A stretch of DNA of 64,000 nt. It comes from Escherichia coli. GTDB taxonomy: Bacteria; Pseudomonadota; Gammaproteobacteria; Enterobacterales; Enterobacteriaceae. Each line of letters starts with the position of its first letter. Position 1 is the stretch's first letter. Position numbers: made by a program. The DNA is taken from the NCBI RefSeq assembly GCF_965641715.1, contig NZ_OZ282453.1. The stretch is one strand, 5' to 3'. This document shows positions 36,301 through 45,300 of the stretch, piece by piece.

Positions 36301-39300
36301 GGCCTGCGTTACGGCAGCGACTCCCCGGAATCTTATGGCCTCGGCAAAGCTGAAGAGCTGTTCGGCGAGGAGATCAGCGAAGAGGACAAAGAGACTGAAT
36401 CTACCGATATGACCAAGTGGCAGATCTTTGTTGAGTATGTGCTGAAAAACAAAGTGATCTGGCTGCTGTGCTTCGCCAACATTTTCCTCTATGTGGTACG
36501 TATTGGTATCGACCAGTGGTCAACCGTATACGCGTTCCAGGAACTGAAACTCTCTAAAGCGGTGGCGATTCAGGGCTTTACGCTGTTTGAAGCTGGTGCG
36601 CTGGTCGGTACGCTGCTGTGGGGCTGGCTCTCTGACCTGGCGAACGGTCGCCGTGGCCTGGTGGCCTGCATCGCGCTGGCGCTGATTATCGCCACGCTCG
36701 GTGTGTATCAACATGCCAGCAACGAATATATCTATCTGGCTTCTCTCTTTGCGTTGGGTTTCCTGGTCTTTGGCCCGCAATTGTTGATTGGTGTGGCTGC
36801 TGTTGGCTTTGTACCTAAAAAAGCGATTGGCGCTGCCGATGGTATTAAAGGCACCTTTGCTTACCTGATTGGTGACAGCTTTGCCAAGTTAGGTCTGGGA
36901 ATGATTGCCGATGGGACACCGGTATTCGGCCTTACCGGCTGGGCAGGCACCTTCGCCGCACTTGATATCGCCGCGATTGGTTGTATCTGCCTGATGGCGA
37001 TAGTGGCGGTGATGGAAGAACGCAAAATCCGCCGCGAGAAAAAAATTCAGCAGTTGACAGTGGCATAAACGTAACTGGTGACTTTTGCCCGGCATGACGC
37101 CGGGCTTTTTTTATTCAATTTGACCAGATTAACGCCTGGGGGAGTTTTCCAGATATCATCAAAAGTTGATGCGCAGGAGAACGCATGATCTGGATAATGC
37201 TTGCCACCGTCGTGGTGGTGTTTGTGGTTGGTTTTCGGGTTCTGACGTCAGGCACCCGATGGGCGATTCGCCGTTTAAGCGAACGACTTAATATTGATGT
37301 TGTACCCGTAGAATCGATGATCGATCAGATGGGTAAAATGCCTGGTAAAGAGTTTTTGTATTATTTGCATCGCCCGGATGAATCTCATCTGCAAAATGCT
37401 GCTCAGGTGTTACTTATCTGGCAAATTGTGATTGTCGATGGTAGTGAGCAGAACCTGTTACGTTGGCATCGGTTGTTGCAAAAAGCGCGTCTTGCTGCGC
37501 CGATCACGGATGCCCAGGCCCGTCAGGCGCTGGCTTTTCTCCGTGAGTTAGAGCCAGATATGCAGGCGATTAATGCCTTCCAGATACGCTTTAACGCCCT
37601 CTTCCAGCCAGAAGAAGGCGTGTTTTGGTTGCATTAACTCAATGTGAGTGGCCTGTCAGAACCAGGCTTCCCACATCGCGCCAAGGTTAAAGTCGTCAAG
37701 CGTTTCCTCTTTTGTACCGTTGACGCGTGCAGTCCGGTCATTATCAACTTGCCCGCCCGTCATGTAGAAACGTAGCATTGGGCGGAATTCCGGGCCCATC
37801 GCAATAGAAATGTTCTGTGACAGCGTCAGCTTCCAGCCTGAATTATCTCCGCCTTTATCATAATCAACCCGTTGATAACCCGCCTCAAGCCAGGTGGAGT
37901 GAACGTCATTCCAGAAATACATAGGACGGACAATTACGCCATAGTTTTTGCGGTTATCACTCTTAATAGAACTGTTGTCGTAATCATGGAAGGCCAGTAA
38001 ATACTCGATTTGCGCCTGCTGGGTAAATTTATGACTACCTTCAAAGCTGGCGTAAATTGTCGTGAGATCGTCAGTTTTATTGTAAACACTGTTATCAGAA
38101 TTATCAGAGTAGCGGGCAATGACTTTATTTACTCCGCTGTCATTGCTATGGCTTACAACAAATGCCCCCTGCCAGGCTTTCAGTTTGTCTTCACCTTCGA
38201 CCGCTTTTGAGTCGAAGCCGTAGTTAGCGTACAACTCAAGATCCAGTGGCCCCAGTTTCATACCATGGATTTTGGACGTTACCGCATAATTGCCTTTGTC
38301 GCCCGTTCCTGACCCGCCAGTACAGGTAATGCGTGACGGATTGGTCTCATCCTCCATCACTTCAGGATTACAGGATTCAACCGCTGCGACAGTAGCAAGG
38401 TCAAACTTGATGCCACCAATGTCGAAATTTTTCACCCCGGCACCCTGACCATCGTGAGTCATCCAGAAGTAGTCATTAATGCCCTGTTGCGGGCGCTGGT
38501 GGAAGTCACGACCAGCCCAGATATAGGCGTCAGGATTGGATGCCAAAACATTGGTGACACCAGCGTAGGCTTTTTTCAGGTTAACTTCGTCGCCCCAGTG
38601 ATCAATCATGATATTGACATCCCAGATTGCGCCGTTATCGCTCTTGAAGGCTTTTGATAACTGAAACTCTCCGCCGTTACCTTCGTTCCCCAGACGACCA
38701 ATTGCAGATGCACCATTATAGGAGCCGTCTACAGCAACATATTTTTGATCGCCGCTTTGAAAATGAGCCCCATAACGGGCATACCCACTAAATTTTACGC
38801 CAAAGGGAATTGCCATATCCGGAGACTGCGCAGCACTTTCCGGTTCGTTAATCACATCCACTTTTTTCGCTGCCGCGGCATCCATTTTTTCTTGCCTTTC
38901 GGCTAATGCTTTATCGACGGCTTTTGCCACAATGGCGTCTATTTGTTCCTGAGTAAATTCCTGAGCCTGGGCAGATATTGAGTACAAAGCGGCAATAACC
39001 GCCAGGGTAACTGGAAGTGTATTTATCTTTTTCATGATTATCTCACGCACACGTTATAATTCATTATGCGTTGGGCATAATAAATATAAGGTGTGTATTA
39101 ATTTGTTTTATGATAATAAGCAGCCTGTTTCAGCTTGTTTTTAACTACCGAAACAGGTGGTTTATCTATTTTATTCTTGGGTAAAGCAGAGGTTTTATTT
39201 TATCAAATAGATGTTCCTCATAAGCATTAATCAATTATCTTTGATAAAGATGAATTATTTCTTCTGCTAATTCTCGTGCCAGCATTGATGTCATTAAATG

Positions 39301-42300: not shown

Positions 42301-45300
42301 GTGTCGCTGCAATGAGCGACAGAGCGTAATCCAGCACCTTGTCACCCCGTTGCATTCCGTAGTCCGCCATATCAATGGCTTTTACGGGTATTCCCTGGGG
42401 GGCGGCCTTTTCTGCGAGCATGTTTAACATATACTTTACCTGCGGTCCGAGTAGCACCACCTGATATTTTGGAAACTGAATATCAAATTCGGAAACTCCG
42501 TAGGCATCTATCTCTACCGGTAGCTCTCTGCTTTCTGCGGCCTCGACCATTTTTTTCACCAGCAGACTGGTTGACATCCCCGCAGAGCAACACAACATAA
42601 TCCTGACCATCTGACACATCCTCTGAATGTAAAAATCTATTTCGCAATTGATTTGATATCATTTGGAAACCGGTTTCCATTCATGGAAACATAAACTGTG
42701 ACGGCTATCAGATTTCGCTATAAAGTCGCGTTATTATTTCGATTCTGTTCACATTTTTATCATTATTAGCTCAGTTTTGAGATGCCATGGAAAATCGGTT
42801 TCCATTAGAAAACGGAAACAGTTATACTGCGAACGGCTAATATTTAAGCCAACAGGAATTCAGGATTGTGGGAGCCAGGGCCGCTCTGTCAGGGGAGAAT
42901 GATGTCTACTATCAATGATGTATCGCGTTTGGCTGGCGTTTCAAAAGCGACGGTTTCTCGGGTGTTGAGCGGATCGCGTGGTGTTAAAGAAGCCAGCCGT
43001 CTCGCGGTATTGAAAGCCGTCGAAGAGCTAAACTATCGTCCCAATGTCATTGCGCAGTCACTGCTGACGCAATCTACGGGCTGTATCGGTGTAATTTGTG
43101 CTCAGGAAAACATTAATCAGACCACCGGTTATCTTTACGCTCTGGAAAAACATCTCAGCCAGCATCAAAAACATCTACTTCTTCGCTTCGCCAGCAATAA
43201 AGCCGAGGTAAAGAACGCCCTTGATGAGCTGAGCTGTGGTTTGTGTGATGACGTACTGATTATTGGTGCGCGTTTCCCACTGAATATTCATCAGGAAAAC
43301 GTGATACTGGTGGACTGCCTTGAGACGGGTAATGATGTTAACAGTATTCAGTTCGATCACACATTCGCGACTGAAACCGCTTGTAACTATCTGATAAGTC
43401 AGAACAGACGCCAAATCGCCCTCATCCACCCACACGGTATGGGATTTTCTGACCAGGTCTTACTGGGCTATAAACACGCGCTGGAGAAAAACTTTCTTCC
43501 CTTTAACCGTAATCTGGTTTTTATGGAAGCAATCTCTTCCTCAGTGGCTTTGCAGGAGCTGCTAAATAACGCCTCAACACTGAACTTTAATGCGTTATTA
43601 GTTGCTGATGAACAGCAAGCGCAGCGGGTGATACCGCAATTGCAGGCGTTTAATAAATCTGTTCCTGAGGACATTATGGTATTTAGTCTGGCGGGTACTG
43701 TTCATCTTCCGGGGATACCGACCATTCCGGCGATAGAATATTCGCTGGACGAAATGGCCGCCCGCATAGTCAGTTGGCTTAACGAGAAGACGCAGACGAT
43801 GCTGGGTTCATATGTTCTGCGCGGTGATTTAATTATTCCCGATGTACGTTCACGTTAAGTGCTAAATGTATGACGTGAAGCTGCGGCTTCACGTCTACAT
43901 ATCCGAGCATTCAACCTTGCCTAACGCTTCCCAGTAATTGTTCTGGTTATTGCGTTCCATCGCCACAATAGCCTCACGGATGTGCTGCTGATTACTTTCA
44001 TCAGACAACATTATCTTTTCCCAGGCCTCGTCTGATATTGACGCTTGTGGAGTACATATTTTCCGTAAATCAGCTAATACGGTCTTTTTTTCATTCCGTG
44101 ACTTCCAGCGTGGTGAAGGCAAACTTCTCGCCATCAAATAGCCCCTGACTGGTTAGTTTCAGCGCGGGGATCACTGGCAGAGAAAGAAACGCCATCTGAA
44201 TAAACGGCTCATCGGGTAACGGACCGCATTCACGGGCGGCGGCTTTCAAGGCGTCAATTTGCTCGGCCAGCGACTGCGCCGTGTCGGTGCTCATCAGCCC
44301 GGCAATGGGCAACGGTAGATGACTTTGTACCTGGCCGTTACGTACCACGCACAACCCGCCGCCATCCTGAATCACCTGATTGACCGCCAGCGCCATCTCT
44401 TCGGCACTGCGACCGATCACCACAATATTATGGCTGTCATGACTGACCGTCGCAGCCAGCGCACCTTCATTCAGGCCAAAGCCGCCGAGCAAACCACAGG
44501 CCGGAGCCAGACGTTGCCCGTAACGCTCAAGTACGGCAATAAAGCACACATCATCGCGATCAAAACCATTTTCGCTGTAGACGCTGGAGCGGGAGTGCGT
44601 AATCAATTCGTTATGGATGACGTCAATGACCCGATAGCGTTTTCCGGGTGTAAATTGCTGGGCAAAGTCGCTGGCGGAAACTGGCTGACGGGCAATGGTA
44701 TTGCCATACGGCGGAGCGGATTGTGCCAGTCTCGCCGACTCTTCCGCCTGTAAGGTTTGCGCGTCAATCGGTGCGCCTTTCACCAGTACCTGCTGCACCG
44801 TGACCTTACGCGCATCGCTCAACAGGACGATATCAGCCTGCTTACCGGGTGCCAGTAAGCCCAGGTGATTCAGACCAAAGTGGCGCGCCGTAGACCAGCT
44901 GGCGACGCGATATGCCACATGCAGCGGCACATTGTGTTGTTCGATCAGGCGGCGAATTAGGGAATCGATATGCCCTTCATGGGCGATCTCCCACGGGTTA
45001 CGGTCATCAGTACAGAGCATGCATTGCGGGCTGTTAAATTCGTTGATCAACGGTGCCAGTGCGTTGAGATTGCGGGCAGCGGACCCCTCGCGGATCATCA
45101 ACGACATGCCGAGTTGTAATTTCCGGCGTCCTTCTTCCAGCTGATAACTTTCGTGGCAGTTTTCAATACCCGCGGCAATATAGGCGTTGAGTTCTTTACC
45201 ACCCAAACCCGGGCAGTGACCGTCCAGCGTCAGGTGGCGAAATGCATCCAGTTTATCGAGCAGCGCATTCTGCCCGCTAATTACGCCAGGGTAGTCCATC

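What the first reader, a model, noticed from the sequence alone, without database searches (positions are those of the whole stretch)
37656..43858. Beta-glucoside utilisation module combining a cellobiose-type PTS (separate IIB, IIC, IIA), a GH1 phospho-beta-glucosidase, a ScrY-like porin and a LacI-type repressor
Minus-strand operon order is IIB, IIC, GH1, IIA, porin, with tight or overlapping junctions (ATGA overlap between GH1 and IIA), and a divergent LacI-family regulator. The porin has a long coiled-coil-like N-terminal extension as in sucrose porin ScrY. The architecture differs from the K-12 chb, bgl and asc loci and resembles accessory beta-glucoside operons reported in extraintestinal E. 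coli (possibly the bgc-type locus; I cannot confirm identity, and I recall that locus having a different regulator type). Substrate specificity is unknown.
Basis: partly seen in the sequence, partly recalled or inferred. Interest (0 to 1): 0.5.

Follow-up and report, generated by a model that had tools for sequence, protein, structure and literature searches.

The report
Rare E. fergusonii-type cellobiose-family PTS operon
This is an intact but ordinary sugar-uptake gene cluster (outer-membrane pore, PTS transporter, phospho-beta-glucosidase, repressor), most likely for cellobiose-type sugars, that is common in E. coli's relatives, was apparently picked up from Escherichia fergusonii, and sits in only about 0.5% of complete E. 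coli genomes.

Summary
Window 37656-43858 holds, on the minus strand, IIB, IIC, a GH1 phospho-beta-glucosidase, IIA and a LamB-family porin, with a divergent LacI-family regulator. All are intact and keep their catalytic and phosphorylation residues.

It is not the bgc operon. The bgc-type locus of CFT073 has a GntR regulator, a different gene order and only 26-44% protein identity. It is also far from the K-12 chb, asc and bgl loci (26-52%).

The module lies on a 6.96 kb segment inserted into the 45-bp spacer between uhpT and adeD. The full segment is present in 25 of 5426 complete E. coli genomes. It is 98.1% identical to the yicS-yicN interval of Escherichia fergusonii ATCC 35469, and its synonymous divergence is 3-5 times lower than that of the flanking core genes.

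The same six-gene module is present in 54 of 80 Enterobacterales species loci. Two palindromic operators about 125 bp apart and a CRP-like site are conserved in the regulatory region.

The most likely function is inducible, CRP-dependent, PTS-mediated use of cellobiose or a related beta-glucoside. The substrate is untested and no paper on the operon was found. It is a new member of a known kind, of modest interest.

The parts
37116..44079 (.). Inserted segment (island) between the uhpT terminator and the adeD stop codon
   Evidence: K-12 homology ends at 37115 and resumes at 44080. 37145-44095 is 98.1% identical to E. fergusonii ATCC 35469. The full segment is present in 25 of 5426 complete E. 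coli genomes.
37185..37637 (+). DUF1198 gene: a second, foreign copy of yicN carried on the island
   Evidence: 78% nt identity to K-12 yicN and 96.9% to E. fergusonii yicN. The resident yicN copy lies within the ORF 47314-47871 (K-12 yicN homology 47380-47871).
37656..39035 (-). LamB-family carbohydrate porin, 459 aa
   Evidence: Pfam LamB over residues 82-459, 3e-73. The AlphaFold model has 18 strands. Foldseek best hits are LamB, then ScrY. 99-100% identical to E. fergusonii proteins.
38964..39035 (-). Porin signal peptide (residues 1-24, cleavage after SAQA)
   Evidence: Read directly from the sequence. This is an inference from the A-x-A motif.
38868..38951 (-). Porin N-terminal periplasmic helix (residues 29-56)
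   Evidence: AlphaFold helix 29-56 at low confidence, pLDDT 55-60. The sequence is 84% conserved across 35 orthologs, and the unit is duplicated in Erwinia and Hafnia. No Pfam Sugarporin_N hit.
39036..39234 (-). AT-rich IIA-porin spacer
   Evidence: 199 bp here and 132-373 bp in 57 other loci (one outlier at 650 bp), with only patchy conservation. No minus-strand terminator, operator or CRP match.
39235..39537 (-). PTS IIA (lactose/cellobiose family), 100 aa; His76 and Asp79 present
   Evidence: TIGR00823, 2.6e-35. Aligned to E. coli ChbA structures; the His mutated to Glu in 2LRK aligns with His76.
39534..40931 (-). GH1 6-phospho-beta-glucosidase-type enzyme, 465 aa; Glu166 (NEP) and Glu364 (ENG) present
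   Evidence: Best solved relative is S. pyogenes SPy1599 (4B3K), E 6.6e-150, 49% identity over 453 aligned positions. The SWLNAYKNRYG segment is identical.
40952..42283 (-). PTS IIC (Lac/cellobiose family), 443 aa; GIHG His247 and NINE Glu330 present
   Evidence: TIGR00410, 367 bits against a cutoff of 236. Aligned to B. cereus ChbC 3QNQ, 1.4e-66.
42296..42610 (-). PTS IIB, 104 aa; Cys8 in the CSAGMSTS motif
   Evidence: TIGR00853, 2e-26. Aligned to cellobiose and chitobiose IIB structures.
42651..42679 (-). Inferred core promoter of the operon (-35 TGGAAA 42674-42679, -10 TCAAAT 42651-42656)
   Evidence: Inference only. This register places the CRP-like site near -61.5. The simple promoter scan did not detect it.
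42664..42679 (.). Operator O1, perfect 16-bp palindrome TGGAAACCGGTTTCCA
   Evidence: Single exact match in the 64 kb window. At most 2 mismatches in 65 of 68 loci from many genera.
42697..42712 (.). CRP-like site TCTGATAGCCGTCACA
   Evidence: 1 mismatch to TGTGA-N6-TCACA. A TGA-N6-TCACA motif lies exactly 33 bp (centre to centre) from O1 in 62 of 68 loci.
42738..42753 (.). Second, weaker CRP-like site (TGTGAACAGAATCGAA)
   Evidence: 2 mismatches. The TGTGA half-site is conserved in the alignment. Weak evidence.
42787..42805 (.). Operator O2, ATGGAAACCGATTTTCCAT
   Evidence: Nearly invariant in 68 loci. O1-O2 spacing is 125-127 bp in 61 loci.
42799..42828 (+). Promoter-like site of the regulator gene (-35 TTTCCA inside O2, -10 TATACT)
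   Evidence: Consensus scan. The AGTATA block is invariant in the 68-locus alignment.
42902..43858 (+). LacI-family regulator, 318 aa
   Evidence: NCBIfam LacI family, 5.6e-29. Pfam LacI plus Peripla_BP_3 on record for the E. fergusonii product, whose dN against the window copy is 0.
43895..44095 (-). Truncated yicS (lacks the N-terminus) at the right end of the island
   Evidence: YicS family, 3.6e-28. RefSeq marks it as a pseudogene. E. fergusonii has the full 97-aa gene at the same relative position.

Best explanation
This is an inducible, catabolite-controlled pathway for a beta-linked glucose disaccharide or glucoside, most likely cellobiose. The proposed steps are as follows. (1) The LamB-type trimeric porin lets the sugar cross the outer membrane. 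(2) The IIC permease takes it up while phosphate passes from PEP through EI and HPr to IIA (His76), to IIB (Cys8) and onto the sugar. (3) The cytoplasmic GH1 enzyme (Glu166 and Glu364) cleaves the 6-phospho-beta-glucoside into glucose-6-phosphate plus glucose or an aglycone. (4) Without inducer, the LacI-family repressor binds O1, which overlaps the operon's core promoter, and O2, which overlaps the -35 of its own promoter. The phosphorylated sugar is the likely inducer. (5) cAMP-CRP bound 33 bp upstream of O1 is needed for full expression. The module is an old, widespread Enterobacterales operon. In E. coli it lies on a 6.96 kb piece of E. fergusonii-type chromosome joined into the uhpT/adeD spacer through a short T-rich microhomology. 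Shown here: gene content, intact motifs, conservation, operator architecture and origin. Inferred: substrate, inducer, CRP dependence, transcription start and co-transcription of the porin.
For: Family assignments are. The phosphorylation and catalytic residues are all present. The closest solved GH1 is a biochemically characterised 6-phospho-beta-glucosidase, SPy1599 (named as such in PMC10360150, ref 39). The six operon genes have dN/dS of 0.07 or less against E. fergusonii and about 0.02-0.12 against Citrobacter, so they are under purifying selection. All six genes occur in the same order in 54 of 80 species loci. O1, O2 and the CRP-like site keep fixed spacing in 61-65 of 68 loci from many genera. 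E. fergusonii carries the operon natively and is told apart from E. coli in the clinic by cellobiose fermentation (PMC5454151, PMC9895846). A 65%-identical paralogous PTS-GH1 cluster in other E. coli lies within about 5.4 kb of a GH9 (cellulase-family) gene. Origin: island genes have dS 0.03-0.08, against 0.18 and 0.245 for uhpT and adeD; junctions are.
Against: No experiment on this operon was found in any species. No NCBIfam equivalog cutoff is reached for GH1, IIA or IIB; IIC passes only the broad lactose/cellobiose family model and misses the cellobiose-specific one (367 against a cutoff of 434). The regulator is only 25-30% identical to the predicted cellobiose regulators CelR, CelR2, BglR and AscG, so its effector cannot be transferred by homology. 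E. fergusonii may have other beta-glucoside systems, so the phenotype link is circumstantial. The operon promoter was not found by the simple scan, and its -10 lacks the usual A at position 2. The CRP motif alone is not enriched in the window. The 199-bp spacer leaves porin co-transcription open.
Confidence: 0.7

Rival explanations
1. The machinery is the same but the physiological substrate is different: an aryl-beta-glucoside (arbutin, salicin, amygdalin, esculin), gentiobiose, laminaribiose or sophorose, a beta-mannoside or glucomannan fragment (GmuD-type), or a beta-galactoside such as lactose.
For: GH1 and the PTS components reach no substrate-specific NCBIfam cutoff. The 6-phospho-beta-galactosidase models score highly (355 and 298 bits), and IIA is closest to the lactose-type IIA model. 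One RefSeq genome names the 65% paralog GmuD (row H97). [quoted passage not shown]
Against: The best solved relative is a 6-phospho-beta-glucosidase. From my own knowledge, not tested here, E. fergusonii is typically lactose-negative, so lactose is unlikely. The paralog's proximity to a GH9 gene points to cellulose-derived sugars.
Confidence: 0.25
2. In E. coli the operon is a silent or decaying passenger, cryptic like bgl, chb and asc, and contributes no phenotype.
For: It is rare, at 25 of 5426 genomes. Two genomes keep only remnants; the one examined (14EC033, H51) has the porin cut next to an IS1 element. The yicS fragment is dead, and the island's DUF1198 copy shows relaxed constraint (dN/dS 0.52). 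E. coli is known for cryptic beta-glucoside operons (PMC13267602).
Against: All six genes are intact here and in the 25 carriers, where RefSeq annotates them as complete. dN/dS is 0.07 or less. The operators, CRP-like site and promoter blocks match the cross-genus consensus. The host species E. fergusonii ferments cellobiose without selection (PMC9895846).
Confidence: 0.15
3. It is the bgc operon of extraintestinal pathogenic E. coli, or a chb-type chitobiose operon.
For: Both share the same general parts: separate IIB, IIC and IIA, a phospho-beta-glucosidase, and a porin in bgc.
Against: The bgc-type locus in CFT073 has a GntR regulator, the order IIB-IIC-IIA-porin-GH1, a marB-eamA location and 26-44% identity. 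chb uses GH4 ChbF, an AraC-type ChbR and ChbG; IIC/ChbC identity is 30% and ChbF gave no blastp match to any protein of the module. Only 65 of 5426 genomes match at the DNA level.
Confidence: 0.02

Closest known systems
Escherichia fergusonii ATCC 35469 chromosomal locus yicS-(LacI, IIB, IIC, GH1, IIA, porin)-yicN (CU928158.2, 4.05-4.07 Mb)
   Same: Same six genes, order and lengths. 98.1% nt identity over 6953 bp, and the proteins are 99-100% identical.
   Different: In E. fergusonii it sits between a full-length yicS and yicN, next to adeD. In the window it lies on the other side of adeD, directly after uhpT, with yicS truncated. It is uncharacterised in both species.
Orthologous module in Citrobacter, Kosakonia, Enterobacter, Leclercia, Pantoea, Serratia, Yersinia, Erwinia, Hafnia, Atlantibacter and Mangrovibacter
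   Same: Same six genes and order in 54 of 80 species loci. Protein identity is 68-96%. O1, O2 and the CRP-like site are conserved.
   Different: Chromosomal position varies outside the Citrobacter/Enterobacter group. Some Pantoea loci lack the porin. C. werkmanii and C. youngae keep only the GH1 gene.
bgc operon (bgcEFIHA plus bgcR) of septicemic and uropathogenic E. coli, taken here as the CFT073 marB-eamA locus
   Same: Lac-family PTS with separate IIB, IIC and IIA, a porin, a GH1 phospho-beta-glucosidase and a divergent regulator.
   Different: The regulator is a GntR-type activator (PMC3585215), not LacI-type. The order is IIB-IIC-IIA-porin-GH1. Identities are 44, 43, 30, 30 and 26%. It is at a different locus.
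E. coli K-12 chbBCARFG, ascGFB and bglGFBH
   Same: All are PTS-dependent beta-glucoside or chitobiose systems. chb has separate IIB, IIC and IIA; asc has a LacI-type repressor; bgl has a dedicated porin with an N-terminal helical extension.
   Different: Identities are IIA/ChbA 52%, IIB/ChbB 46%, IIC/ChbC 30%, GH1/BglB 29.5%, regulator/AscG 26% and porin/BglH 26-34% over local matches. chb uses GH4 and AraC-type control. asc and bgl use Glc-family fused permeases. bgl uses antitermination.
Streptococcus pyogenes SPy1599 (PDB 4B3K/4B3L), a GH1 6-phospho-beta-glucosidase
   Same: 49% identity over 453 aligned positions. The NEP and ENG motifs are present and the SWLNAYKNRYG segment is identical.
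   Different: It is a Gram-positive enzyme in a different operon context. The specificity of the window enzyme is untested.
LamB maltoporin and ScrY sucrose porin
   Same: 18-stranded sugar-porin barrel (Pfam LamB; Foldseek LamB 7e-16, ScrY 2e-11). Like ScrY and BglH, it has an N-terminal helical periplasmic extension.
   Different: Only 14-21% identical. The extension has about 57 residues (helix about 28) and has no Pfam Sugarporin_N match. ScrY is not found by sequence search.
Paralogous rare E. coli island at tRNA-Phe (strain FG92-1)
   Same: Order IIB-IIC-GH1-IIA with 56-69% protein identity, plus a porin and a LacI-family regulator.
   Different: The porin lacks the extension and is 24% identical; the regulator is 29% identical. 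The island also has MalM-family and GH9 genes and an integrase.

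Membership tests
PTS lactose/cellobiose (Lac) family, TC 4.A.3 | Separate IIA with a phosphorylatable His in the VHAQDH helix | tested here: met
   His76 aligns with the ChbA active His (the residue changed to Glu in 2LRK); Asp79 is present.
PTS lactose/cellobiose (Lac) family, TC 4.A.3 | Separate IIB with an active-site Cys in the N-terminal CSAGMSTS loop | tested here: met
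   Cys8 aligns with the Cys of ChbB and cellobiose IIB structures.
PTS lactose/cellobiose (Lac) family, TC 4.A.3 | IIC of the ChbC fold with the conserved GIHG His and NINE Glu of the sugar site | tested here: met
   TIGR00410, 367 bits against a cutoff of 236. Aligned to 3QNQ at 1.4e-66; His247 and Glu330 are present.
PTS lactose/cellobiose (Lac) family, TC 4.A.3 | PEP-dependent uptake and phosphorylation of a beta-linked disaccharide | not testable with these tools
   Needs transport assays.
GH1 6-phospho-beta-glucosidase | Acid/base Glu in NEP and nucleophile Glu in ENG | tested here: met
   TFNEP Glu166 and SENG Glu364.
GH1 6-phospho-beta-glucosidase | Phosphate-binding C-terminal segment as in proven 6-phospho enzymes | tested here: met
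   SWLNAYKNRYG is identical to SPy1599 in the alignment. That this segment binds phosphate is my own knowledge of LacG- and BglA-type enzymes.
GH1 6-phospho-beta-glucosidase | Membership of a curated equivalog (BglA, BglB, AscB or LacG models) | tested here: not met
   All NCBIfam hits are below their cutoffs; the best is TIGR03356, 417 against 478.5.
LamB/ScrY sugar porins | LamB-domain 18-stranded barrel | tested here: met
   Pfam LamB 3e-73. 18 strands in the model, mean pLDDT 67.5. Foldseek hits LamB and ScrY.
LamB/ScrY sugar porins | ScrY-type N-terminal coiled-coil domain (Pfam Sugarporin_N) | tested here: inconclusive
   A helix at 29-56 is predicted at low confidence and is conserved, but there is no Sugarporin_N match. 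Its oligomeric state is not testable here.
LacI-family repressors | N-terminal LacI HTH plus a periplasmic-binding-protein-type sugar domain | tested here: met
   NCBIfam LacI family. PF00356 and PF13377 are on record for the E. fergusonii product, whose dN against the window copy is 0.
LacI-family repressors | Palindromic operator with a central CG near the regulated promoter | tested here: met
   O1 TGGAAACCGGTTTCCA and O2 are conserved in 65 of 68 loci. Binding itself was not tested.
LacI-family repressors | Orthology to a named cellobiose or beta-glucoside regulator (AscG, CelR, CelR2, BglR) | tested here: not met
   25-30% identity. The regulator was not found in the stored, truncated RegPrecise-derived supplement.
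bgc operon | GntR-type activator BgcR transcribed divergently | tested here: not met
   The regulator here is LacI-family. The CFT073 locus has a GntR gene, and BgcR is described as GntR-type in PMC3585215.
bgc operon | Sequence identity to the bgc genes, and prevalence in uropathogenic and septicemic strains | tested here: not met
   26-44% protein identity. Only 65 of 5426 genomes match at the DNA level.
chb operon | GH4 ChbF, AraC-type ChbR and deacetylase ChbG | tested here: not met
   None of these is present in the island.

The most novel reading that the evidence does not exclude
This uncharacterised operon could be the functional, non-cryptic determinant of the cellobiose-fermenting phenotype that diagnostically separates E. 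fergusonii, and many other Enterobacterales, from E. coli. Its transfer into the uhpT/adeD spacer would then explain the rare cellobiose-positive E. coli isolates. It would also define a new LacI-family regulon (operator TGGAAACCGGTTTCCA) and a porin subfamily whose conserved N-terminal helix is needed for function.
Probability: 0.4. Interest if true: 0.4.

Novelty: new member of a known kind. Interest (0 to 1): 0.27.

Why it matters
If the function is confirmed, the operon would give a gene-level explanation for a classical identification test: cellobiose fermentation in E. fergusonii versus E. coli. It would also add a naturally inducible cellobiose pathway to the E. coli pan-genome. Reviews of cellobiose use in E. 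coli currently list only the cryptic chb, asc and bgl systems (PMC13267602), so this could be useful for biomass engineering. It is also a clean small example of chromosomal DNA moving from E. fergusonii to E. coli by microhomology, without any mobile-element genes. None of this changes current understanding of PTS sugar pathways.

Tried and rejected
1. bgc identity. Rejected by the DNA search and by protein comparison with the CFT073 marB-eamA locus. The original bgc paper (PMC2675225) is not held, so calling that CFT073 locus bgc rests on the description in PMC3585215 and on my memory of the abstract.
2. ScrY homology of the porin. ScrY is not among the sequence hits, there is no Sugarporin_N match, and LamB is the better fold match.
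3. Orthology of the regulator to AscG or to the RegPrecise CelR, CelR2 and BglR. Only 25-30% identity. The regulator was not found in the stored supplement.
4. Mobile-element signatures. There are no terminal direct or inverted repeats, integrase or IS on the island.
5. RNA elements. No credible Rfam hit in 36500-44500.
6. Internal terminator, operator or CRP site in the IIA-porin spacer. None found. The conserved GGTTATTATCT block there is unexplained.
7. Literature on this operon, on rare cellobiose-positive E. coli, or on fitness data. Nothing relevant was found, and the Hall and Betts paper is not held.
8. A class II CRP arrangement. Rejected because the -10 register would fall on AACCGG inside O1 (read).
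9. The idea that the porin helix is more conserved than the barrel. It is not: 84% against 83%.

Full report
**What is there**

ORF listing and family scans confirm a minus-strand row of five genes:
- PTS IIB, 42296-42610
- PTS IIC, 40952-42283
- a GH1 glycosidase, 39534-40931
- PTS IIA, 39235-39537
- a LamB-family porin, 37656-39035

A LacI-family regulator is transcribed divergently at 42902-43858. The starts are those RefSeq uses for an identical locus.

The GH1 stop and the IIA start overlap in ATGA. IIB-IIC and IIC-GH1 are separated by 12 and 20 nt. IIA and the porin are separated by a 199-bp AT-rich spacer, so that junction is not tight. The scan found no minus-strand terminator in the spacer.

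**Are the genes intact?**

All ORF lengths equal those in E. fergusonii. The functional residues are present:
- GH1: Glu166 in TFNEP and Glu364 in SENG. The SWLNAYKNRYG segment is identical to that of S. pyogenes SPy1599, a characterised 6-phospho-beta-glucosidase (E 6.6e-150; 49% identity over 453 aligned positions; PMC10360150, ref 39).
- IIA: His76 and Asp79, aligned to ChbA.
- IIB: Cys8.
- IIC: GIHG His247 and NINE Glu330, aligned to B. cereus ChbC.

dN/dS for the six genes is 0.07 or less against E. fergusonii. Where dS is not saturated, it is 0.02-0.12 against Citrobacter.

**The porin**

Pfam finds LamB over residues 82-459 and nothing else of note. An AlphaFold model built from 38 sequences has moderate confidence (mean pLDDT 67.5). 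It shows a signal peptide, a helix at residues 29-56, a disordered linker and 18 strands.

Foldseek ranks LamB first (7e-16) and ScrY next (2e-11). ScrY does not appear in the sequence search.

The helix sequence (EFTQEQIDAIVAKAVDKALAERQ...) is conserved across genera to the same degree as the barrel, 84% against 83%. Its unit is duplicated in Erwinia and Hafnia orthologs. K-12 BglH has a comparable N-terminal helical segment.

So the porin is a LamB-family sugar porin with a ScrY/BglH-style periplasmic extension. It is not a close ScrY relative. A coiled coil is plausible but not shown.

**Comparison with known E. coli loci**

| Window protein | K-12 counterpart | Identity |
|---|---|---|
| GH1 | BglB | 29.5% |
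| IIC | ChbC | 30% |
| IIB | ChbB | 46% |
| IIA | ChbA | 52% |
| Regulator | AscG | 26% |
| Porin | BglH | 26-34%, local matches |

For bgc, I located a locus in CFT073 between marB and eamA. It has a GntR regulator and the genes IIB, IIC, IIA, porin and 6-phospho-beta-glucosidase. This matches the description of bgc in PMC3585215. Its proteins are 43% (IIB), 30% (IIC), 44% (IIA), 30% (GH1) and 26% (porin, over 100 residues) identical to those of the window. A sensitive blastn of the IIA-to-IIB segment hits only 65 of 5426 complete genomes. That is incompatible with a locus said to be prevalent in uropathogenic strains. The module is therefore not bgc.

**Distribution in E. coli**

The whole 7.1 kb query (37100-44200) is present in 25 of 5426 complete E. 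coli genomes. In 24 of them it is at 98.3-99.6% identity with both junctions. Most listed carriers come from animals, food or water.

Other variants:
- Two genomes keep only DUF1198 plus part of the porin. The one examined (14EC033, H51) has the porin cut next to an IS1 element.
- One genome (LH50-c) carries the module elsewhere, together with the yicS'/adeD' junction, inside a larger mosaic island.
- About 40 genomes carry a different, 65%-identical paralog. In strain FG92-1 it lies in a tRNA-Phe island with another porin, a MalM-family gene, a LacI gene and a GH9 gene.

**Origin**

K-12 homology stops at 37115, just after the uhpT terminator, and resumes at 44080, at the adeD stop. In K-12 these two points are adjacent: uhpT and adeD converge with 45 bp between them.

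The inserted DNA carries a second DUF1198 gene, 78% identical to K-12 yicN. It also carries the 3' part of a yicS gene, 81.5% identical. The porin is 99-100% identical to E. fergusonii proteins.

In E. fergusonii ATCC 35469 the gene order is yicS, LacI, IIB-IIC-GH1-IIA-porin, yicN, adeD, uhpT. Window 37145-44095 is 98.1% identical to that interval. The flanks are 95.8% (uhp genes) and 92.9% (adeD) identical. Synonymous divergence is 0.03-0.08 for island genes, against 0.18 for uhpT and 0.245 for adeD.

This pattern fits transfer between the E. fergusonii and E. coli lineages after they split.

The right junction lies in a shared CGG(G/T)CTTTTTTT(C)ATT stretch. The left junction has a 29-bp filler of unknown source. 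There are no mobile-element genes or terminal repeats.

**Distribution beyond Escherichia**

A scan of one genome per species returned 80 loci with GH1 at 77-93% identity. Of these, 54 hold all six genes in the same order. Genera include Citrobacter, Kosakonia, Phytobacter, Enterobacter, Leclercia, Lelliottia, Pantoea, Serratia, Yersinia, Erwinia, Hafnia, Atlantibacter and Mangrovibacter.

In Citrobacter, Enterobacter and Leclercia the module is again flanked by yicS and DUF1198-uhpT, so this neighbourhood is old. Some Pantoea loci lack the porin. C. werkmanii, C. youngae and two unnamed Citrobacter isolates keep only GH1 between yicS and a 394-aa ORF that I did not identify.

**Regulation**

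An alignment of 68 LacI-IIB intergenic regions shows five conserved blocks:
- O1, TGGAAACCGGTTTCCA (42664-42679). It is a perfect palindrome with a central CG and is unique in the window.
- O2, ATGGAAACCGATTTTCCAT (42787-42805).
- A CRP-like site, TCTGATAGCCGTCACA (42697-42712).
- A weaker TGTGA-containing site (42738-42753).
- AGTATA, which is the -10 TATACT of a promoter-like site for the regulator. Its -35 lies inside O2.

O1 has at most 2 mismatches in 65 of 68 loci. The O1-O2 spacing is 125-127 bp in 61 loci. The CRP-like motif lies exactly 33 bp from O1 in 62 loci.

If the -10 is TCAAAT (42651-42656), CRP sits near -61.5 and O1 covers the -35 and spacer. That would be a class I CRP-dependent promoter blocked by the repressor. 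This register is an inference; the start site is unknown.

The regulator is only 25-30% identical to AscG and to the predicted CelR, CelR2 and BglR regulators of Enterobacterales (PMC4052901 supplement). Its inducer is therefore inferred only by analogy with PTS-linked LacI regulators, which are predicted to sense sugar phosphates (PMC4052901).

**Substrate**

No equivalog-level model is reached for GH1, IIA or IIB. IIC passes only the broad lactose/cellobiose model.

Evidence pointing to cellobiose or a similar beta-glucoside:
- The nearest characterised GH1 is a 6-phospho-beta-glucosidase.
- The paralogous cluster lies within about 5.4 kb of a GH9 gene.
- E. fergusonii, which carries the operon natively, is identified by cellobiose fermentation, unlike E. 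coli (PMC5454151, PMC9895846).

From memory only, the Citrobacter species that retain only GH1 are cellobiose-negative or variable, and about 2% of E. coli isolates are cellobiose-positive. I did not verify either statement.

No paper on this operon was found. A 2026 review of cellobiose use in E. coli lists only chb, asc and bgl.

**Verdict**

This is a real, intact and conserved PTS beta-glucoside module with its own porin and LacI-type repressor. It is rare in E. coli because it arrived from an E. fergusonii-type chromosome. It is neither bgc nor any K-12 system. It is uncharacterised but conventional in design, so it is a new member of a known kind and of modest interest.

Noticed in passing
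window 28937-30244 and 30460-31956 (+): Two paralogous ORFs (435 and 498 aa) with about 33% GC lie between ilvN and uhpA. K-12 has nothing there: its homology resumes at 32057. They have no NCBIfam match, and RefSeq calls the gene at this position upstream of uhpA a hypothetical protein.
   Followed up: partly
window 47987-48310 and 48294-48653 (-): An HTH antitoxin-like gene and a RelE/ParE-type toxin gene sit between the resident yicN and nepI. This falls in a gap of the K-12 alignment (47946-48787).
   Followed up: partly
window 50268-60803 (+): A 3511-aa ORF with a LysM-like N-terminus and about 25 tandem repeats of roughly 100 aa. It looks like an intimin/invasin-type giant adhesin.
   Followed up: no
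L002 5767-15158 (E. coli FG92-1, tRNA-Phe island): A second rare E. coli island has a 56-69% identical IIB-IIC-GH1-IIA set. It also has a porin without the N-terminal extension, a MalM-family gene, a LacI gene and a GH9 gene, next to an integrase and IS elements.
   Followed up: partly
L004 7614-11247; also L005, L008, L025: C. werkmanii, C. youngae and two unnamed Citrobacter isolates keep only the GH1 gene (90-93% identical) between yicS and a 394-aa ORF. The PTS, regulator and porin genes are gone, so this is a reduced form of the locus.
   Followed up: partly
L089 6949-13568 (E. coli LH50-c): The module, still attached to the truncated yicS and a C-terminal adeD fragment, sits in a different mosaic island near xylA and GH43 genes. 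The already-inserted segment appears to have moved a second time.
   Followed up: partly
L083 5086-7343 (E. coli 14EC033): An island remnant: DUF1198 plus a porin truncated by IS1, with a deletion reaching tnaA.
   Followed up: yes
L049, L065, L056, L039 porin N-termini: Erwinia and Hafnia orthologs carry a 15-16-residue internal duplication of the helix unit ALAERQxKIDxAV. Biostraticola (L066) has a long Ala/Thr/Pro-rich linker insertion.
   Followed up: no
L042 regulatory region (Yersinia frederiksenii; L046, Y. rohdei, has a similarly long spacer): An extra O1-like copy (CGGAAAACGGTTTCCT) lies downstream of O1 in a spacer about 80 bp longer, giving three operators.
   Followed up: no
window 37068-37115; L084 7731-7996: K-12 annotates the sRNA UhpU across the uhpT 3' end and terminator, up to the adeD stop. 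The island is inserted immediately after that terminator and leaves it intact, but the adeD stop codon changes from TAA to TGA.
   Followed up: partly
window 39036-39234: In the IIA-porin spacer, a GGTTATTATCT-type block about 40-50 nt upstream of the porin start is conserved across genera, while the rest of the spacer is not. Its function is unknown; an internal promoter is possible.
   Followed up: partly
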